Source of the DNA: Candidatus Woesebacteria bacterium RBG_16_42_24
Lineage (GTDB): Bacteria > Patescibacteriota > Microgenomatia > UBA8517
Direction: 5' to 3'
NCBI GenBank assembly: GCA_001792115.1
Contig: MGFX01000001.1
Location: forward strand, 188,694-238,605
Length of the DNA: 49,912 bases
Every line of letters begins with the position of its first letter. The stretch's first letter is position 1. Under the pieces are notes generated by a model that made no database searches, was not told the origin of the DNA, and saw only the letters and a list, made by a program, of their open reading frames with translations. Shown here piece after piece: positions 2,103 to 28,539 of the stretch. The position numbers and the translations under genes are program-made.

Positions 2103-2132
2103 CTCACAAGTTGTATGATAACATTATTAATA

Positions 2133-3716
2133 ATGCCCGACCAAAACCCAAGTTTCCCGACGGAAGAAGCTCCAGCGGCCCCATATGGAGAGATGAAACA
2201 ACCCAAGGAGATTGCACCACAGCCAGAGCCCCTTCAAGGCCCGTCCCAATCCCAACCTTGGACTGGAACAGCCACGCCTCCCAAGGAAGCTGGGGGGGTA
2301 AGCCCCGAGACTCCGAGTCCGGCGCCAGTAAGTCCCGCCGGACCCGTTAGTCAACCGCCGGTACCAGTAATTGCTGAAGGACCAACCGTTACTACAACGG
2401 GGCGAAGATTTCCAATAAAAATTATTCTCGGAATACTTCTCGCCTTAATACTTGCGGCCCTGGCTTACTTCGGGTTCAAGTTTTTGAGGAGCAGAACGGG
2501 GGCTCCATTAACTACCAACACGATTACCTGGTGGGGCCTTTGGGAAGACTCGGGAGTTGTCGCGCCCCTAATCGAGGAGTACCAAACCCAGAACCCTACT
2601 ATAAAAATCGAGTACGTAAGACAATCCCCCAAAGATTACCGTGAACGGCTTGAGAGTTCCCTTTCCGGGGGCGAAGGCCCTGACATTTTTTTCTTCCACA
2701 ACAGCTGGGTGCCCATGTTTAGGGATAAGCTCGACAAAATTCCTGCAGAAGTAATGGGTGCCGGGGAATTTGCCCAGACATTTTACCCGATTGTCTCTTC
2801 GGACGTCACTAGCGGAACCGGGTTAACTGGAATTCCCTTGGGGTATGACGCGCTAACTCTTTACATAAACCAGGATATGTTTGACGCTGCTGGTAAGACA
2901 GCACCAGAAACGTGGGACGATTTAAGGAAAGTAGCAAGCGAGTTGACGATTAAAGACGAAGACGGCCTAATTTCGCAATCGGGCGTTGCTTTGGGGTTAA
3001 CATCAAACATAGACCATTGGCCGGAGATTTTGGCTTTAATGATGCTTCAAAACGGCGCAAATCTGGCCGAGCCGACGGGTGAGTTGGCCGAGAAAGCTCT
3101 TGAGTTTTATACCTTTTTTTACAAGACAGATAAAGTTTGGGATGAAAACCTTCCCAACTCGACGGTCGCCTTTGCTGCAGGAAAAGTAGCCATGATTTTT
3201 GGTCCTAGCTGGCGAGCCTTTGAGATAAAAGAGCAGAACCCGGAGCTAAGATTTAAGACAGTTGCCCCGCCCCACCTTCCTAAAGAAGATACTAATGAAC
3301 CAGACGTCGCATATGCGACATATTGGATACAAGGGGTCTGGGAGGGGAGTTCTCAAAAAGAAGCGGCTTGGAGTTTTCTTAAATTCATGAGTCAAAAGAC
3401 AAGTTTGGAGAAGCTTTTCGCAAACGCCAGTAAAACCAGGCTTTTTGGTGAGCCATACCCGAGGGTGGATATGACCGAACTTCTTAATACGCACCCAATG
3501 CTTGGAGCAATAATTACCCAAGCCCCTAATGCGACCAGTTGGTATTTAGCTAGTCGAACTTTCGATGGACCGACGGGAATAAATTCACAAATAAATAAAT
3601 ATTTTGAGGATGCGGTGAATGCAGTTAATGAAGGAACGAGCGCCGAAGGTGCGCTTGCGACAACCGCGGAGGGAGTTGCCCAAATTCTTGCCCAATTCGG
3701 AATTTCTTCTCCATGA
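2133..3716 (+). CDS. Extracellular solute-binding protein family 1 (sugar-type) with Pro-rich N-terminus and TM anchor
   Basis: ITWWGLWE, GPDIFFFHNSW, GIPLGYDALTLYIN, TWDDL and FAAGKVAMIFGPSW motifs; start moved to ATG 2133. Confidence 0.88.
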   Translation: MPDQNPSFPTEEAPAAPYGEMKQPKEIAPQPEPLQGPSQSQPWTGTATPPKEAGGVSPETPSPAPVSPAGPVSQPPVPVIAEGPTVTTTGRRFPIKIILGILLALILAALAYFGFKFLRSRTGAPLTTNTITWWGLWEDSGVVAPLIEEYQTQNPTIKIEYVRQSPKDYRERLESSLSGGEGPDIFFFHNSWVPMFRDKLDKIPAEVMGAGEFAQTFYPIVSSDVTSGTGLTGIPLGYDALTLYINQDMFDAAGKTAPETWDDLRKVASELTIKDEDGLISQSGVALGLTSNIDHWPEILALMMLQNGANLAEPTGELAEKALEFYTFFYKTDKVWDENLPNSTVAFAAGKVAMIFGPSWRAFEIKEQNPELRFKTVAPPHLPKEDTNEPDVAYATYWIQGVWEGSSQKEAAWSFLKFMSQKTSLEKLFANASKTRLFGEPYPRVDMTELLNTHPMLGAIITQAPNATSWYLASRTFDGPTGINSQINKYFEDAVNAVNEGTSAEGALATTAEGVAQILAQFGISSP

Positions 3717-3954
3717 CATCCTCCCCGCCCTAAAGAGCGGGGGTATCCCTCCAAAGGAGGATGATATATCAGGTGAATAACCAACGCCCAGCGTTGTCAA
3801 TTCCTCCACGGATTGAAATCCGTGGTATCCTTGAAACTGTTATGACATTCTCCATGGACTAAGAGCCCACAGTTTCACTTTTGAAAGAGAATGACATATC
3901 AAGTTCAATTCCTCCGTGAGCTGAAAGCTCACGGTTTCCTTGAAATTGTTATGA
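3713..3954. mobile_element. Two tandem non-autonomous hairpin mini-elements (IS200/IS605-end or REP-like) bounded by ATGA
   Basis: ATGA at 3713, 3842 and 3951 bound units of 125 and 105 bp that share TCAATTCCTCC-stem-GGTWTCCTTGAAAYTGTT; the stems covary. Confidence 0.65.
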
Positions 3955-4808
3955 GGCAAGAGACTAAAAGAGATTTTACACTCTATTACCACGACATTTT
4001 TGAATACCCGCTAACGGACGAGGAGGTTACTGTCTGGCAGCCTGGCAAAAAACTTGGGGGAGAATTGAAAAAACGAGTTGAGACTGAGAAAAAGGGAGGG
4101 TATTCATTTTTAAAAGGTAAAGGGAGACTCGTGGAGGAGAGGCGGGAAAGAGAGAGCATCAGCAAAAGAAAAATTGAAATGGCAAAAAGGGGTGTTGGGT
4201 TTATCTCGACAATTCCCACGGTTAAGATGGTCGCCCTTACAGGGGCCCTGGCAATGAGTAATGCCAAGGTGGATTCCGATATAGACATTTTCATTATTTG
4301 TAAGGGGGGAACACTTTGGGCGACGAGGATGTTTACGATTTTTCTACTGGATATTTTTGGAATTCCCAGAAACGCTGGAGGCAAGGTCGATAAAGATAAA
4401 CTCTGCTTGAATATGTGGTTGGATGAGCGCGATTTAATCTGGGGCAGGACAGATAGAAATTTTTATACAGCTCACGAAATCGCCCAGATTATTCCTCTTG
4501 TAAACAAAAGAGGGACCTACGAGAGGTTTATCTTTGTTAATAGGTGGATTAAGGATTATTGGCCCAATGCAGTCAAGATACTAAGTGAAGAAGATACTAA
4601 GATACTTGTGGGGAAGAGCAAAAAAAATCACTTAATATCTAAGTATCTTAGTATCCTAGTATCTTTGCTATTCGAGCCGATTGCCTTTCGGTTGCAGTAT
4701 TTCTATATGAAGTCGAAGATCACCCGTGAGGTCGTAACTCCCACCCGGGCAATTTTTCATCCCCGAGACTGGGGAAAAATCGTGATGAAACGACTAACCC
4801 AGGTTTAG
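3951..4808 (+). CDS. Nucleotidyltransferase-fold (Pol beta-like) protein
   Basis: VALTGALA...SDIDIFII motif (G-x...D-x-D); the upstream 60 nt of the tracked ORF are repeat sequence, so the start is placed at 3951. Confidence 0.72.
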   Translation: MRQETKRDFTLYYHDIFEYPLTDEEVTVWQPGKKLGGELKKRVETEKKGGYSFLKGKGRLVEERRERESISKRKIEMAKRGVGFISTIPTVKMVALTGALAMSNAKVDSDIDIFIICKGGTLWATRMFTIFLLDIFGIPRNAGGKVDKDKLCLNMWLDERDLIWGRTDRNFYTAHEIAQIIPLVNKRGTYERFIFVNRWIKDYWPNAVKILSEEDTKILVGKSKKNHLISKYLSILVSLLFEPIAFRLQYFYMKSKITREVVTPTRAIFHPRDWGKIVMKRLTQV

Positions 4809-9229: not shown

Positions 9230-9304
9230 TGGAGGCCGGAGCGGGAATTGAACCCGCGCATAGGTGTTTTGCAGACACCCGTGTTTCCACTTCACCATCC
9301 GGCC
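9230..9304 (-). tRNA. trnC: tRNA-Cys (GCA), CCA encoded
   Basis: Acceptor GGCCGGA/TCCGGCC, anticodon arm GGTGT-CT GCA AA-ACACC, T-loop GGTTCAATTCC, ends TCCA. Confidence 0.97.
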
Positions 9305-12235: not shown

Positions 12236-13278
12236 AAAGTAAGTCCTCCAAGAAGCGCGGCAATACCGACCATTGTATATAACTTTGAGGCAGTCTTCAA
12301 ATTTAAGGCCAAGATTCCCAGGATGAAAGTTATCAACCAATAAAAAACTGCCACTTTAGGCTTCCCCCAGCCGATATCAAGGAGTCTATGGTGAAGGTGC
12401 CCCCGATCTCCCCAGACAGGAGATTTTCCCGCTGCAACTCTTCTAATAATTGTATAACCGGTATCAATGAGTGGGACTCCTAAAACTACCATCAGGGTTC
12501 CAACCTTAGTTGTCGAAAGGATGGAAAGAACAGCAAGCAGGTATCCTGCGAGAGTAGCCCCTCCGTAAGAAGGCATTATTTTTTGAGGGTAAATATGCCA
12601 AGGAAGAAAACCAAGATATGCACCAGCTGTAATTACCGCAAGGATAATTACCGGCCATTGGGCAATATCCGCTGAAAATCCGAGAGAAAGAGCGGCGATT
12701 GTCAGGGCAGCGATAACGACGACTCCGGTTAGTTGCCCATCCACACCTTTAGCCCCCATATTGAGCATATTCATCATGAGTACTATCCAAATCAAGGCGA
12801 AGGAGTCAGAAAGGACCCAAATATTCCTTGCCTCTCCCAGTAGATTCAGACTAATCTGCGGGTGTGAAAGGTCGATAATCCCGCCCGATGGGTTTGAGAT
12901 GAATGAAATCCCAATGCCAGCGATGATTGGAGCGGCAGCTGCGGCAAATCCGGCGAGCAACCTCAAGTAGGGGTTCAAGTCGTATTTATCATCGGCAAGG
13001 CCCATAACAATGATGATAGTTGCCCCGGCCAAGATGCCGACGAGATGTTTATCAAGGGGTAGGAAAATTAAGGCCGAGATAAGGACCCCAAAATAAATTG
13101 CGAGTCCCCCGCCTCTGGGAGTAGGATATGTGTGGATTACTTTTGGATGGACGTGCTTGGCCGGGTCGTCGATCATCCCCCAAGCTTTGGCGAGCTTGAT
13201 TACAAGGGGCGTGGCCAGGAAGGAAACTATCGCCGCAAGTGCAAGTGGTAAAAGTACAAATTCGAATAAATTCGGCAT
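12202..13278 (-). CDS. MraY/WecA-like glycosyltransferase family 4 (polyprenyl-phosphate hexose-1-P transferase)
   Basis: PTPRGGGLAI, GLADDKY, GVDGQL, KIMPSYGG, DRGHLHHRL. Confidence 0.92.
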   Translation of the reverse strand: MPNLFEFVLLPLALAAIVSFLATPLVIKLAKAWGMIDDPAKHVHPKVIHTYPTPRGGGLAIYFGVLISALIFLPLDKHLVGILAGATIIIVMGLADDKYDLNPYLRLLAGFAAAAAPIIAGIGISFISNPSGGIIDLSHPQISLNLLGEARNIWVLSDSFALIWIVLMMNMLNMGAKGVDGQLTGVVVIAALTIAALSLGFSADIAQWPVIILAVITAGAYLGFLPWHIYPQKIMPSYGGATLAGYLLAVLSILSTTKVGTLMVVLGVPLIDTGYTIIRRVAAGKSPVWGDRGHLHHRLLDIGWGKPKVAVFYWLITFILGILALNLKTASKLYTMVGIAALLGGLTLWLTYRSKSSK

Positions 13279-18663: not shown

Positions 18664-20076
18664 CTAAAGCCTCGGAAAAAGTGCTGGCCCAGATTTTATT
18701 TTAGGTCCGAGAAATTGTTTTTCAATTTTTTCGGAAGTTTCCGGTAAGAAGGGCTTGAGGTTATAGCTCAAGTTTCTAATGATTGAGACTGCGCCGGTTA
18801 AGAATTTTTTAAGAGGGTTTCCTTCAAGCCTCCAAGGTTCTTCTTTGTTAATTGAAGAATCAAGTCCTGAGATGAATCTGTCAAAAAGATATTTGAGGGC
18901 TTCGTCAAAGCGATAATTTTTAATGTTTTCCTCAACCAAATCGTCAAATTTAAGAACCTTTTCTTGGGGAAATTCAAAGCCTGAATTTTCGCAGAGCTTA
19001 GCTATACGAGAAACTAAATTCCCGATACCATTTGCCAAGTGGGCGTTATATTCTTCTTTAAATTTCTCTAGCGAGATGTCTCCGTCTGAACCAAAGGGAT
19101 ATGCAGAAACTACGAGATATCTTGCCCCGTCTACTCCATATTTTTCTACCAACTTTTGTGGAGAAATGACGTTTCCCAAAGATTTTGACATCTTAGCCCC
19201 ATCAATTGTAAAGAACCCATGGGCAAATATTGTTTTTGGAAGGGGAATACCGGCTGCAATAAGAATGGCCTGCCAAATAACAGTATGAAACCAAAGGATA
19301 TCTTTTCCGACTAAATGTAAGTTGGCCGGCCAGAAGTCTTCTTTTCCCTTAAGAAATCTTGTTGCTGAGTAATAGTTGATTAGGGCGTCTACCCAGACAT
19401 AAATTGTTTGAGATTTATCCCAGGGAATAGGAATCCCCCAAGAAACTCCGGCCCTTGATATTGAAATGTCTTCCACACCTTGTTTTATTCGTGATACAAC
19501 CTCCTTTTTCTTCTCTTCCGGCAAAATTTGATATTCACCGTTTTCGATCTTTTCAAGAACTTTATGAGACAACTCTTTGAGTTTTAAGAAATAATTTTTC
19601 TCTTCCTGGTGGATAGGTTCTTTATTCGGATGAAGTGGGCATTTGCCATCTACTAACTCACTTTCGGTGAGGAATTTCTCACAGCCAACACAATACAAAC
19701 CCTTATAAGTTCCAGGGTAGACGTAGCCTGCGTCATAGATTTTTTGGATGAGATCGGTAACCACACTTTCGTGCTTGGGATCGGTTGTTCTTATAAAATA
19801 ATCGTAGTCAATATTGAGCAGTTTCCACGCTTCTTCAAATCTTGGAGCTACGGAATCAACAAATTCTTTGGGGGATAAGCCCCTTTCTTTAGCGGCTTGG
19901 GCGACTTTTTGTCCATGCTCGTCCGTTCCAGTAAGGAAAAATACATTTTCTTTCCCATTTTTTTGTCGCCAATATCTAGCTACCACGTCGGCCGCAATAG
20001 TCGTATAGGCGTGCCCTATATGGGGAACGTCGTTGACGTAATAAATTGGCGTAGTCAAGAAAAATTTGCTGGTCAT
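18664..20076 (-). CDS. metG: Methionyl-tRNA synthetase (short form)
   Basis: TTPIYYVNDVPHIGH, LTGTDEHG, YVWVDALINY, KMSKS. Confidence 0.98.
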   Translation of the reverse strand: MTSKFFLTTPIYYVNDVPHIGHAYTTIAADVVARYWRQKNGKENVFFLTGTDEHGQKVAQAAKERGLSPKEFVDSVAPRFEEAWKLLNIDYDYFIRTTDPKHESVVTDLIQKIYDAGYVYPGTYKGLYCVGCEKFLTESELVDGKCPLHPNKEPIHQEEKNYFLKLKELSHKVLEKIENGEYQILPEEKKKEVVSRIKQGVEDISISRAGVSWGIPIPWDKSQTIYVWVDALINYYSATRFLKGKEDFWPANLHLVGKDILWFHTVIWQAILIAAGIPLPKTIFAHGFFTIDGAKMSKSLGNVISPQKLVEKYGVDGARYLVVSAYPFGSDGDISLEKFKEEYNAHLANGIGNLVSRIAKLCENSGFEFPQEKVLKFDDLVEENIKNYRFDEALKYLFDRFISGLDSSINKEEPWRLEGNPLKKFLTGAVSIIRNLSYNLKPFLPETSEKIEKQFLGPKIKSGPALFPRL

Positions 20077-27990: not shown

Positions 27991-28024
27991 TAGGTCTTGA
28001 CAAAAGACCTAAATATAGTACTAT
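27991..28024 (+). promoter_or_regulatory. TA promoter with palindromic operator
   Basis: TAGGTCTT-N5-AAGACCTA overlaps TTGACA (27997); TACTAT at 28019, ATG 6 nt later. Confidence 0.75.
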
Positions 28025-28030
28025 TTACAT

Positions 28031-28270
28031 ATGACAAGCGTATCCATTACTGACCTGAAGACAAAACCAGCCTCGGTTATTTTAGCTTCGGAGGATTATC
28101 CTGTTGCAATTAAAAGTAGAGAGAAGACCAAAGCCTACCTTGTAGGCAGAAGCCTTTTTGAGAAGATGATTGCGTACATTGAGGATGTTGAGGACGTTAA
28201 AGCTGTTGAGAAAGCAGATTTAAGCAAGGCTACAGATTTTGAAGAATTTGCCAAAGAGCTGGGGATATGA
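28031..28270 (+). CDS. Phd/YefM-family antitoxin
   Basis: VSITDLKTKPASVI...PVAIKSREKTKAYLV N-terminus, acidic C-terminus, ATGA overlap with the toxin. Confidence 0.8.
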   Translation: MTSVSITDLKTKPASVILASEDYPVAIKSREKTKAYLVGRSLFEKMIAYIEDVEDVKAVEKADLSKATDFEEFAKELGI

Positions 28271-28539
28271 ATCTTAAGATTATTCCTCAGGCGAAAAAGC
28301 AAATCAGAAAACTTTCTAAAACTACCCAAATTATAGTTGGCAACAAGATAAGACAACTGGGAACAGGAAACTTTAGCAATTCCAAAAAACTGGCTTCCTA
28401 TAAGGATGTTTTTAGGATTAGATTGGGTGATTATCGGATTGTTTATATCCTTAGATCAGATAGTGTTTATATAATCCTAGTTACACACAGAAGAGAAGCT
28501 TACAAAAAGCTTGCTATTTATTACAAACATTTTAAATAG
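28267..28539 (+). CDS. relE: RelE/ParE-family toxin
   Basis: AKKQIRKL, FRIRLGDYRIVY, HRREAY. Confidence 0.88.
   Translation: MNLKIIPQAKKQIRKLSKTTQIIVGNKIRQLGTGNFSNSKKLASYKDVFRIRLGDYRIVYILRSDSVYIILVTHRREAYKKLAIYYKHFK

What the first reader, a model, noticed from the sequence alone, without database searches (positions are those of the whole stretch)
3713..3954. Two tandem covarying hairpin mini-elements at an ancestral ATGA stop/start overlap
ATGA occurs at 3713, 3842 and 3951. The first contains the upstream stop and the last is the downstream start, so deleting everything between them gives a clean translational coupling (tct ccA TGA ggc). The 125- and 105-bp units are diverged copies. Flanks TCAATTCCTCC and GGTWTCCTTGAAAYTGTT are conserved, while the enclosed stem changes from ACGGAT/ATCCGT to GTGAGC/GCTCAC (5 of 6 pairs covary). 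Hairpins such as CCCCGCCCTAAAGAGCGGGG resemble IS200/IS605 or REP subterminal hairpins. Inference: a non-autonomous element that targets ATGA gene junctions, or a structured RNA. No transposase is in the window.
Basis: partly seen in the sequence, partly recalled or inferred. Interest (0 to 1): 0.75.

Follow-up and report, generated by a model that had tools for sequence, protein, structure and literature searches.

The report
Two mini-transposons at ATGA junction
The 234-bp spacer between two genes is two head-to-tail copies of a small, gene-less mobile DNA element of the IS200/IS605 type; it inserts next to TCAT, the reverse complement of an ATGA stop/start overlap, and has well over a hundred copies in Woesebacteria-like bacteria.

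Summary
Window 3713-3841 (U1) and 3842-3950 (U2) are two copies of a ~110-nt element. Orthologous loci with the same gene order have no insert and read ...tcttctccATGAggcaag..., which is exactly the predicted empty site. The family has more than 100 copies in Woesebacteria and other Patescibacteria genomes and metagenomes.

Read on the window's minus strand, each copy has the end anatomy of an IS608-type IS200/IS605 transposon:
- a target motif, TCAT or TTAT;
- a left-end hairpin 16 nt inside the boundary;
- a right-end hairpin followed by exactly 10 nt (AGGATGTYAT) that end in a target-like motif;
- no terminal inverted repeats and no target duplication.

An internal "guide" base covaries with the host target base in 98 of 105 copies. 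Rfam HgcC, an RNA family linked in the literature to IS1341/TnpB right ends, gives repeated sub-threshold matches on that strand.

TCAT is the reverse complement of ATGA, so these elements land exactly at start codons and ATGA overlaps without changing either protein. No transposase was found, so the copies are non-autonomous (PATE-like). This is a new family of a known kind. Still open are the partner enzyme, a possible RNA role, and why the same dimer occupies the same site in two non-sister lineages.

The parts
2115..3716 (+). Upstream gene for an extracellular solute-binding protein (533 aa). Its TGA stop (3714-3716) now lies in the terminal motif of U1.
   Evidence: ORF list. Pfam SBP_bac_1 and SBP_bac_8, E about 1e-28. 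In the empty orthologs the C-terminus ...QFGISSP* is conserved and the stop lies in the shared ATGA.
3713..3841 (-). U1: one PATE-like element, 129 nt, type A core. Top strand is the minus strand. Its left end is at 3841 and its right end at 3713.
   Evidence: Aligns over its full length with U2 and with 29 genome copies. It is part of the covariance-model seed. An HgcC sub-threshold match lies on the minus strand at 3700-3798.
3713..3722 (-). U1 right-end spacer: 10 nt, AGGATGTCAT on the minus strand, ending in the TEM (transposon-encoded end motif) TCAT. Its complement ATGA supplies the stop codon of the SBP gene.
   Evidence: Sequence. The 10-nt distance and the leading AG match the IS608 right end (PMC3201880). 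AG is present in 96 of 105 family copies.
3723..3742 (-). U1 right-end subterminal hairpin (IP_R, my P1a): CCCCGC/GCGGGG stem.
   Evidence: Folding. All 7 pairs of this helix show compensatory changes across the family.
3775..3796 (-). Optional 22-nt hairpin module (GAATAACC + CAACGC-CCA-GCGTTG), absent from U2.
   Evidence: This is the indel in the U1/U2 alignment. The same module, with compensatory stem changes, is in L010, L025 and L045.
3806..3825 (-). U1 left-end subterminal hairpin (IP_L, my P3): CCACGGAT-TGAA-ATCCGTGG. The loop reads UUCA on the top strand.
   Evidence: The helix covaries (5 of 7 and 6 of 7 pairs with compensatory changes).
3826..3841 (-). U1 left-end spacer: 16 nt, AACAGTTTCAAGGATA on the top strand. 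The last four, GATA, form the predicted guide G_L next to the hairpin foot.
   Evidence: Sequence. The first base of G_L covaries with the second base of the host target.
3842..3950 (-). U2: second PATE-like element, 109 nt, type B. Its right-end motif (3842-3845, TCAT on the top strand) doubles as the target for U1.
   Evidence: cmsearch 117.6 bits, E = 1e-23. Alignment.
3852..3872 (-). U2 right-end hairpin (IP_R), imperfect in the window. It is preceded on the plus strand by the 10-nt spacer 3842-3851 (AGAATGTCAT on the top strand).
   Evidence: The L045 copy has the repaired stem CCATGG...CCATGG.
3914..3934 (-). U2 left-end hairpin (IP_L): CCGTGAGC-TGAAA-GCTCACGG. It is followed by the 16-nt spacer 3935-3950, with guide GAAA on the top strand.
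3951..3955 (-). Host target motif (TAM, transposon-adjacent motif): CTCAT on the top strand, which is ATGAG on the plus strand. It contains the start codon of the downstream gene.
   Evidence: The empty orthologous sites read ccATGAgg. The TAM second base is C in 55 of 58 copies whose guide starts with G.
3951..4808 (+). Downstream gene for a nucleotidyltransferase-like protein (285 aa). Its true start is 3951.
   Evidence: Weak Pfam NTP_transf_2 and Polbeta hits. 567 homologs, most covering about 90% of the 305-aa call. Orthologs in empty loci start MRQE/MRQD.

Best explanation
U1 and U2 are two tandem copies of a non-autonomous, gene-less derivative of an IS200/IS605-family transposon, that is, a PATE-like fusion of a left end and a right end.

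The active strand is the window's minus strand. On that strand the layout is: host target TCAT | LE (left end): AACAGTTTCAAG, a 4-nt guide, then hairpin IP_L | a short core | RE (right end): a small hairpin, AAA, hairpin IP_R, then the 10-nt tail AGGATGTCAT, which ends in a target-like motif.

By analogy with IS608, a Y1 (HUH) TnpA supplied in trans would:
1. bind the two hairpins on single-stranded DNA;
2. find the cleavage sites through base pairing with the guide tetranucleotides;
3. excise the element seamlessly;
4. paste it 3' of another TCAT.
These steps are inferred, not shown.

TCAT is the reverse complement of ATGA. An insertion therefore lands immediately upstream of an ATG(A) start codon. 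At an ATGA stop/start overlap, the host ATGA keeps the downstream start, and the complement of the element's own end (ATGA or ATAA) gives the upstream gene a stop codon in the same frame. Neither protein changes, and only translational coupling is lost.

The right end of U2 is itself TCAT, so a second copy could insert there and produce the tandem pair.

The extra covarying helices and the HgcC-like matches suggest that the minus-strand transcript is an omega-RNA-like scaffold. This is inferred and about 40% likely.
For: Mobility:
- Three orthologous loci with identical synteny (VanW-SBP-NTase-GroES-GroEL) are empty and read ccATGAgg. The window and L045/L046 carry the insert at exactly that point.
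- Four genes give the tree ((window, L047 empty), (L045, L049 empty)). The inserts are 95.7% identical while the flanking genes are 64-76% identical in nucleotides.
- The L116 contig holds an occupied and an empty allele whose flanks are 96-98% identical. Empty: TTC ATAA TTT. Occupied: TTC ATGACATCC...TTGTT ATAA TTT. This means insertion 3' of TTAT on the top strand with no duplication.

Family size: 37 genome loci and at least 118 metagenome loci, with up to 10 copies sampled from one genome.

End anatomy, compared with IS608 (PMC3201880):
- The right-end cleavage motif lies 10 nt 3' of the hairpin foot, and those 10 nt start with AG in 96 of 105 copies.
- Hairpins at both ends covary strongly: 96-97% of cells are paired and 22-23 of 35 pairs have compensatory changes, against 31-51% paired in slid controls.

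Guide rule: the first base of the 4 nt 5' of the left hairpin, the second base 3' of that hairpin, and the second base of the host target form G/G/C in 55 copies and A/T/T in 43, with 7 exceptions. Fisher p = 3e-25 for guide versus target. This mirrors the C-3:G-35*G-9 triplet logic of IS608.

Targets: TTCAT and TTTAT are known TAMs of ISGst5 and ISGst2, and PATE-like minimal copies of those elements are known (PMC10055086).

RNA family: Rfam HgcC (RF00062) matches the minus strand of U1 and of four other copies over its whole model at 22-28 bits, and sot0042 also matches U1's minus strand. HgcC shares a right-end-like motif with RNAs from the 3' ends of IS1341-type tnpB genes and with a PATE-derived RNA (PMC4615843).

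Genes downstream of copies are unrelated in function: L31, L10, S18, PheS, GatB, MreB, DNA ligase, YceG, ParE and a family-4 glycosyltransferase. That argues against a dedicated regulon.
Against: - No tnpA or tnpB was found, either in the window (Pfam on 45 of 47 ORFs) or by motif regex in 1.17 Mb of sampled loci (a weak test).
- The left-end spacer is 16-17 nt, against 19 nt in IS608.
- HgcC scores are far below Rfam's gathering score of 50.
- Helices P1, P1b and P2 covary but are not needed in the IS608 TnpA model.
- About 85% of subtype A/B copies sit at real start codons. Start codons make up only about 30% of the ATGA sites outside genes in the window, so target motif plus purifying selection may not be the whole story.
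- Some orthologous copies differ by compensatory stem changes (L023 vs L039, L077 vs L081), which hints at selection on structure at the locus.
- The same dimer at the same site in two non-sister lineages is not explained by simple random transposition.
Confidence: 0.85

Rival explanations
1. The element is mainly a cis-acting structured mRNA leader on the plus strand, such as a riboswitch, a translational operator or a processing signal. It controls the gene whose AUG it ends with, and it spread by duplication.
For: - Strong covariation in six helices.
- In subtypes A and B the 3' end is the start codon of a real gene. Pfam alignments of L31 and L10 begin at residue 1.
- 10 of 23 type A copies without an adjacent upstream stop have a -10-like box 6-11 nt upstream, so the element would form the whole 5' UTR.
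- The genome is poor in Shine-Dalgarno sequences and looks rich in leaderless mRNAs.
- Orthologous copies keep their stems through compensatory changes.
Against: - Downstream genes share no function.
- Subtype C, about half of all copies, does not precede ORFs and lies in either orientation relative to its neighbours.
- Insertion/empty polymorphisms and a 95.7% identical insert in diverged genomes show mobility.
- Wobble (G-U) and A-C mismatch counts are about equal (19 vs 20), so pairing does not favour the sense strand.
- The purine run GGAGG becomes GAGAA in subtype B, so it is not a conserved SD.
- No Rfam family matches the plus strand.
Confidence: 0.08
2. It is a conventional MITE moved by a DDE transposase, with short terminal inverted repeats and a 4-bp target-site duplication ATGA.
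For: ATGA stands at all three junctions in the window. The ends share a short inverted match, ATAACA...TGTTAT.
Against: - In the L116 pair the left junction is ATGA, the right junction is ATAA, and the empty site is ATAA. The left copy is therefore not a duplicate of the target.
- Subtype A has ATAA on the left and ATGA on the right in most copies, and subtype C has the reverse.
- Orientation relative to the non-palindromic target is fixed.
- The left tetranucleotide covaries with an internal base (A-U 18 / G-C 45).
- The host target covaries with an internal guide base. DDE elements do not show this.
Confidence: 0.03
3. It is a local, non-mobile tandem duplication of an intergenic regulatory hairpin region specific to this locus.
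For: The two units are adjacent and similar.
Against: More than 100 dispersed copies exist in many genomes. Sister lineages have empty sites. U1 and U2 belong to different subfamilies, each closer to copies elsewhere than to the other.
Confidence: 0.01

Closest known systems
IS608 (ISHp608) and the IS200/IS605 'peel-and-paste' single-strand transposons
   Same: - Asymmetric ends with one subterminal hairpin each.
- Insertion 3' of a tetra- or pentanucleotide, with no duplication and no inverted repeats.
- Right-end cleavage motif exactly 10 nt from the hairpin foot, with AG as the first two bases.
- A 4-nt guide 5' of each hairpin whose first base matches the second base of the cleavage motif.
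- A right-end motif that resembles the target (PMC3201880).
   Different: - No tnpA or tnpB inside; the whole element is about 110 nt.
- The left spacer is 16-17 nt rather than 19.
- The target is TCAT or TTAT rather than TTAC.
- There is an extra small hairpin and two long-range helices.
- In subtypes B and C the right-end motif equals a usable target, which allows head-to-tail arrays.
PATE-like minimal elements and ISGst2/ISGst5 of Geobacillus stearothermophilus (Meers et al., PMC10055086); haloarchaeal PATEs
   Same: Fused left and right ends without genes. TAMs TTCAT (ISGst5) and TTTAT (ISGst2) are the same pentamers as the commonest targets here. The TAM/TEM pair differs at one or two positions. 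The guide-TAM pairing is demonstrated experimentally for those elements.
   Different: The host group is different (Patescibacteria/Woesebacteria). No sequence similarity was tested. Here the TAM coincides systematically with start codons and ATGA overlaps, and no cognate TnpA, TnpB or IscB is known.
Rfam HgcC (RF00062) and sotRNAs such as sot0042 (RF02656), which are RNAs from the 3' ends of IS1341-type tnpB genes
   Same: Same order of three hairpins. Shared GAUGA motif and shared tail hairpin-AGGAGGUCA (here AGGAUGUCAU). The match is on the strand predicted to be the transposon's top strand, and it recurs in five copies (PMC4615843).
   Different: Scores of 22-28 bits against a gathering score of 50, so this is not a member by Rfam's criterion. 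HgcC comes from hyperthermophilic archaea and its function is unknown.
REP/REPIN elements mobilised by RAYT (Y1) transposases
   Same: Short hairpin repeats without genes, presumed to be moved in trans by a Y1 HUH enzyme.
   Different: REPINs are inverted pairs of one REP hairpin carrying a conserved GTAG. Here the two ends differ, there is a defined flanking target motif, and the 10-nt right-end spacer is present.
Classical bacterial MITEs (Correia, ERIC, RUP)
   Same: About 100-150 nt, multicopy, intergenic, co-transcribed with genes and able to fold.
   Different: Those have terminal inverted repeats and TA or similar duplications, and they insert in either orientation. None of this applies here.

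Membership tests
IS200/IS605-family transposon ends (non-autonomous, PATE-like) | Insertion 3' of a conserved tetra- or pentanucleotide target (TAM) on one strand, with no target-site duplication, and empty sites that keep the TAM | tested here: met
   Empty sites ccATGAgg (top strand ccTCATgg) in L047, L049 and L050, against the occupied window and L045. In the L116 pair the empty site is TTAT|GAA on the top strand. The target is TCAT in 55 of 58 and TTAT in 44 of 48 copies of the two guide classes.
IS200/IS605-family transposon ends (non-autonomous, PATE-like) | Subterminal imperfect palindromes at both ends, and no terminal inverted repeats | tested here: met
   Hairpins P3 (left) and P1a (right) are present in all copies. 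12-13 of their 14 pairs show compensatory changes. The ends share only about 6 nt.
IS200/IS605-family transposon ends (non-autonomous, PATE-like) | Right-end cleavage motif 10 nt 3' of the hairpin foot, resembling the target; left cleavage site some 16-19 nt 5' of the left hairpin | tested here: met
   The right end is hairpin + AGGATGTYAT (10 nt) in U1, U2 and the family, with AG first in 96 of 105 copies and TEM TCAT (59) or TTAT (35). The left spacer is 16-17 nt, against 19 nt in IS608 (PMC3201880).
IS200/IS605-family transposon ends (non-autonomous, PATE-like) | Cleavage and target motif recognised by pairing with a guide tetranucleotide 5' of the hairpin, so guide and target covary | tested here: met
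   The combinations guide base 1 / base 3' of foot / target base 2 are G/G/C (55) and A/T/T (43), with 7 exceptions; Fisher p = 3e-25. The two guide classes are two clades, but each target is an independent host site.
IS200/IS605-family transposon ends (non-autonomous, PATE-like) | A Y1 HUH transposase (TnpA) in the same genome that binds these ends | tested here: inconclusive
   None in the window (Pfam) and none by regex in 1.17 Mb of loci. Complete genomes could not be scanned.
IS200/IS605-family transposon ends (non-autonomous, PATE-like) | Strand bias of insertions relative to replication (lagging-strand template) | not testable with these tools
   Only contig fragments are available, and no origin or terminus is known.
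TnpB/IscB omega-RNA (HgcC/sotRNA-like) | Match to a curated RNA family above its gathering score | tested here: not met
   HgcC scores 22-28 bits against a gathering score of 50. The matches recur and are on the predicted strand. No IS605-orfB or HEARO match was found.
TnpB/IscB omega-RNA (HgcC/sotRNA-like) | Transcribed from the top strand, ends at the right-end boundary with a flanking guide, and is used by a TnpB or IscB nuclease | not testable with these tools
   No transcript data and no nuclease gene found.
Riboswitch / cis-regulatory leader | Conserved position upstream of functionally related genes, sense strand only | tested here: not met
   Downstream genes are unrelated. Subtype C is not upstream of ORFs.
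DDE-type MITE | Terminal inverted repeats and a true target-site duplication | tested here: not met
   In L116 the left junction is ATGA while the right junction and the empty site are ATAA. Subtype-specific left/right motifs are shown.

The most novel reading that the evidence does not exclude
Subtypes A and B may be more than tolerated parasites. Their target is the reverse complement of ATGA(A), and their end regenerates a stop codon, so they are protein-silent cassettes that sit at start codons. In an organism with few Shine-Dalgarno sites and many apparently leaderless mRNAs, two things could follow. The sense transcript, a ~110-nt structured leader ending in the AUG, may have been co-opted to control or restore translation of the downstream gene. 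The antisense, omega-RNA-like transcript, together with an unidentified TnpB-like nuclease, may drive homing to the same junction in other lineages. Homing of that kind would explain the identical dimer at the same site in non-sister species.
Probability: 0.2. Interest if true: 0.75.

Novelty: new member of a known kind. Interest (0 to 1): 0.55.

Why it matters
- It adds a large, previously undescribed family of IS200/IS605-derived mini-elements in Candidate Phyla Radiation bacteria. These genomes are about 1 Mb and are usually thought poor in mobile DNA, yet up to ten copies were sampled from one genome.
- It gives a clean natural example of how the target and end motifs of such transposons can mimic start and stop codons. 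Insertions at gene starts and ATGA overlaps then leave both proteins intact. This explains a class of odd "intergenic spacers" and the mis-called N-terminal extensions in CPR annotations.
- The guide/target covariation across about 100 independent sites is natural-history support for the IS608 guide rule.
- If the extra helices prove to be an omega-RNA, these elements point to an RNA-guided nuclease in CPR bacteria that has not been found.
- If the sense-strand leader proves functional, it would be a mobile translation-control module.

Tried and rejected
- Riboswitch or regulon reading: dropped because the downstream genes are unrelated and subtype C is not next to ORFs.
- "Split Shine-Dalgarno" (GGAGG brought next to the AUG by the P2/P3 hairpin): dropped because GGAGG becomes GAGAA in subtype B, subtype C also has it, and the genome hardly uses SD sequences.
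- Coding uORF or N-terminal extension (ATG at 3761 and 3891): the reading frame is not conserved between copies because hairpin lengths vary by non-multiples of 3.
- The 6-codon mini-ORF at 3842-3862: a by-product of conserved nucleotides, present in only some subtype B copies.
- tRNA T-arm mimic (GGTTCAATTCC): conflicts with the covarying P2 helix.
- Hammerhead and other self-cleaving ribozymes, and integron attC sites: the core motifs are absent by inspection, and there are no Rfam hits.
- Intrinsic terminator or promoter inside the insert: nothing above chance.
- Viral contigs: no copy found.
- Search for tnpA/tnpB by sequence motifs in 169 loci: nothing found.
- L018, which carries only a left-end-like half: the adjacent 65-aa ORF has no meaningful Pfam match (one weak, unrelated hit, E = 0.053) and no NCBIfam match.
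- Extended target duplication beyond the shared AT/ATRA: none seen.
- Homologous-recombination tract as the source of the shared dimer: the flanks follow the species tree right up to the junction.
- Literature searches for a described CPR repeat or MITE of this kind found nothing.
Full report
THE OBSERVATION

The window is a Woesebacteria-like (CPR) contig from aquifer metagenomes. The solute-binding-protein gene (2115-3716) ends with TGA inside ATGA at 3713. A second ATGA lies at 3842, and a third at 3951 is the start of a nucleotidyltransferase-like gene.

The two intervening units are 3713-3841 (129 nt) and 3842-3950 (109 nt). They align over their full length apart from a 22-nt hairpin found only in the first. 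Both strands fold much better than shuffled sequence. The window contains no further copy.

IT IS A LARGE DISPERSED FAMILY

A pattern made from the conserved flanks of the second hairpin hit 37 loci in the reference-genome collection, where I estimate about 0.5 by chance. About 32 of these are full homologs, nearly all in Woesebacteria or Patescibacteria MAGs, with several copies per genome. A covariance model built from 31 copies recovered 89 matches there.

The secondary structure is strongly supported:
- In the 31-copy alignment, 96.2% of cells pair and 23 of 35 pairs show compensatory changes. With the partners slid by 1-3 columns, only 31-42% of cells pair.
- RNAalifold finds the same helices on its own.
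- An independent set of 64 metagenome copies gives 97.3% paired and 22 of 35 pairs with compensatory changes.

G-U and A-C mismatches are about equally common (19 vs 20), so pairing alone does not identify the strand.

THREE SUBTYPES (plus-strand coordinates)

- Type A has ATAA at its left end and ATGA at its right end.
- Type B has ATGA at both ends.
- Type C has ATGA at the left and ATAA at the right, and differs at two internal loop bases (TTCATCC...GGTTTTC instead of TTCCTCC...GGTWTCC).

In types A and B the terminal ATG is the start codon of a real gene in roughly 85% of copies. Examples are L31, L10, S18, PheS, GatB, MreB, ATP-dependent DNA ligase, YceG, ParE and a family-4 glycosyltransferase. 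For L31 and L10 the Pfam alignments begin at residue 1. These genes share no function.

Type C does not precede ORFs and lies in either orientation relative to its neighbours. Three type C copies lie 11-17 nt upstream of tRNA genes.

EMPTY SITES

Homologs of the downstream protein led to orthologous loci with the same gene order, VanW-SBP-NTase-GroES-GroEL. In L047, L049 and L050 the SBP stop and the NTase start overlap as tcttctccATGAggcaag, with nothing between them. In the window and in L045/L046 the two units sit exactly there.

All four flanking genes give the tree ((window, L047), (L045, L049)). Occupied and empty states therefore occur in both clades. The two inserts are 95.7% identical, whereas the flanking genes are 64-76% identical at the nucleotide level, and even GroEL is only 75.5%. 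The flanks follow the species tree right up to the junction.

A second, recent polymorphism lies inside contig L116, whose two inverted arms are 96-98% identical. One arm reads TTC ATAA TTTAGG. The other reads TTC ATGACATCC...TTGTT ATAA TTTAGG. The host's ATAA stays on the right, and the left ATGA is brought in by the element. The left tetranucleotide is therefore not a target-site duplication.

Two window genes that are orthologous to element-bearing genes elsewhere also lack the insert, the ParE-type toxin gene at 28267 and the glycosyltransferase gene at 13278. At the ParE site the antitoxin stop and the toxin start overlap as ATGA.

READING THE OTHER STRAND

Rfam gave nothing above threshold. 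A permissive scan matched HgcC (RF00062) and sot0042 on the minus strand of U1. HgcC matched the antisense strand of four more copies, each time across the whole model at 22-28 bits, against a gathering score of 50.

Gomes-Filho et al. (PMC4615843) report that HgcC shares a right-end-like hairpin motif with the sense-overlapping RNAs at the 3' ends of IS1341-type tnpB genes. [quoted passage not shown]

I therefore re-read the element on the minus strand. The layout is: host TCAT | AACAGTTTCAAG-GATA-[CCACGGAT UUCA ATCCGTGG]-AG-GAATTGA...-[small hairpin]-AAA-[CCCCGC...GCGGGG]-AGGATGTCAT | flank.

COMPARISON WITH IS608

He et al. (PMC3201880) state the following for IS608:
- It inserts 3' of TTAC without gain or loss of DNA.
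- The left cleavage site lies 19 nt 5' of the foot of the left hairpin.
- The right cleavage site lies 10 nt 3' of the foot of the right hairpin, and the first two of those 10 nt are A-10 and G-9.
- Each cleavage site is read by pairing with the four bases 5' of the hairpin foot (T-4:A-34, C-3:G-35, with triplets to A-10 and G-9).
- At the left end the equivalent two bases are A and T.

In this family:
- The right hairpin is followed by exactly 10 nt, AGGATGTYAT. AG comes first in 96 of 105 copies, and the last four bases are TCAT (59 copies) or TTAT (35 copies).
- The four bases 5' of the right hairpin are GAAA.
- The left spacer is 16-17 nt.
- At the left end, three positions co-vary: the first base of the guide, the second base 3' of the hairpin foot, and the second base of the host target. 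They read G/G/C in 55 copies and A/T/T in 43, with 7 exceptions, all at the host position. Fisher p is 3e-25 for guide versus target.

The A/T/T state reproduces the logic of the IS608 left end, and G/G/C that of its right end. The two guide states are two clades, but every target is an independent host site. This is target choice tracking an internal base, as the guide model predicts.

Meers et al. (PMC10055086) show the same rule experimentally for Geobacillus elements. They report TAMs TTCAT and TTTAT and describe PATE-like minimal copies. Here the base after ATGA is A in 40 of 58 type A/B copies, giving TTCAT. The base after ATAA is A in 19 of 48 type C copies, giving TTTAT.

WHAT THIS EXPLAINS

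- TCAT is the reverse complement of ATGA, so an element that pastes itself 3' of TCAT always ends up immediately upstream of an ATG(A), in the sense orientation.
- Most ATGA sites lie inside genes (248 of 301 in the window), where insertion would be disruptive. Start codons are the main safe class.
- At an ATGA overlap, the host ATGA continues to supply the downstream start. The complement of the element's right-end motif (ATGA or ATAA) supplies a stop for the upstream gene in the same frame.
- The right-end motif of type B is itself TCAT, so it can serve as a target for another copy. This accounts for the head-to-tail pair that shares one ATGA.
- The same logic explains a 46-nt mini-hairpin, flanked by ATGA on both sides, nested at the internal GGATGA of three copies.
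- It also explains why gene callers extend the NTase ORF from an ATG inside U2.

WHAT IS SHOWN AND WHAT IS INFERRED

Shown: family membership of U1 and U2; insertion polymorphism with exact boundaries; absence of a target duplication; the end anatomy; the guide/target covariation.

Inferred: a Y1 TnpA acts on these ends. None was found in the window or, by a crude motif search, in 1.17 Mb of loci.

Inferred more weakly: the minus-strand transcript is an omega-RNA. The basis is the sub-threshold HgcC matches and three helices (P1, P1b, P2) that covary but are not part of the IS608 DNA substrate.

UNRESOLVED

1. The same dimer, 95.7% identical, occupies the same junction in two non-sister lineages, and no other dimer occurs among 169 loci. 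Two precise excisions would explain the empty sisters but not the identity of the inserts. Lateral spread to the same site would need a hot spot or a homing process.
2. Type A/B copies sit at start codons about three times more often than the share of start codons among ATGA sites outside genes would predict. This is a rough estimate.
3. The genome uses few SD sequences, and many genes have a -10-like box 5-9 nt before the ATG. In addition, 10 of 23 type A copies without an upstream stop have such a box 6-11 nt before the element, against 3 of 41 for type C. Insertion seems to turn leaderless mRNAs into mRNAs with a ~110-nt structured leader, yet essential genes tolerate this. How they are translated is unknown. 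Some orthologous copies keep their stems by compensatory change (L023/L039, L077/L081), so a secondary sense-strand role cannot be ruled out.

VERDICT

It is a new family of a known kind: an IS200/IS605-derived, PATE-like element. I found no description of it in the searchable literature.

Noticed in passing
window, whole (e.g. starts at 20076, 21092, 22010, 30954, 30978, 33503, 40570): Few genes have a Shine-Dalgarno-like run. Many have a -10-like box (TGnTAnAAT) only 5-9 nt upstream of the ATG, which suggests widespread leaderless mRNAs in this organism.
   Followed up: partly
L017 4360-4473(-), L057 855-967(+), L060 15-128(+): Type C copies lie 11-17 nt upstream of tRNA genes on the same strand: tRNA-Arg(cct)/tRNA-Pro in L017, and tRNA-Leu(cag)+tRNA-Leu(gag) in L057 and L060.
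   Followed up: partly
L033 4708-4864(-), L104 9878-10033(-), L059 4257-4413(+): A 46-nt double-hairpin mini-element (TACTTCGGCAAGCTCAGTATCATACTGAGTACCATCGAAGT), flanked by ATGA on both sides, is nested at the internal GGATGA of three copies from two subtypes. It may be an even smaller element using the same TCAT target.
   Followed up: no
window 3775-3796; L010, L025, L045: The optional 22-nt hairpin GAATAACC-CAAYGC-NNN-GCRTTG is present or absent at one fixed position. Stem changes between copies are compensatory. The near-identical rplJ-associated copies L009 and L025 differ by exactly this indel.
   Followed up: partly
window 3891-4808; L045 3001-3924: Public gene calls start the nucleotidyltransferase-like ORF at an ATG inside U2 (305 and 307 aa). 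The orthologs in empty loci show that the true start is the ATG at 3951, giving 285 aa.
   Followed up: yes
window 3713-3950 vs L045 2828-3060: The U1+U2 dimer is 95.7% identical between two lineages whose flanking genes are 64-76% identical and whose sister lineages are empty. No other dimer occurs in 169 loci.
   Followed up: partly
L116 (PVMS01144897.1) 1654-2663: The contig is an inverted duplication, probably an assembly join of two strains. One arm carries a type C copy and the other is the empty allele.
   Followed up: yes
L009, L014, L020, L023, L029, L039: MAGs titled 'uncultured Gammaproteobacteria' carry loci near-identical to Woesebacteria loci (for example L009 vs L025). The taxonomic labels look wrong.
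   Followed up: no
L018 6780-7232: A MAG labelled Nanohaloarchaeota has only the left-end-like half (hairpin with flanks), followed by a 65-aa ORF with no meaningful family match (one weak, unrelated Pfam hit, E = 0.053) and a second hairpin with a UUCA loop. It may be a related longer element.
   Followed up: partly
window 28000-28536: A ParE-type toxin gene (28267-28536) overlaps the stop of its upstream partner by ATGA. The orthologous junction in L020 carries a type B copy.
   Followed up: partly
window 9233-9304 (-): The only Rfam match in the window above a gathering score is one tRNA gene.
   Followed up: no
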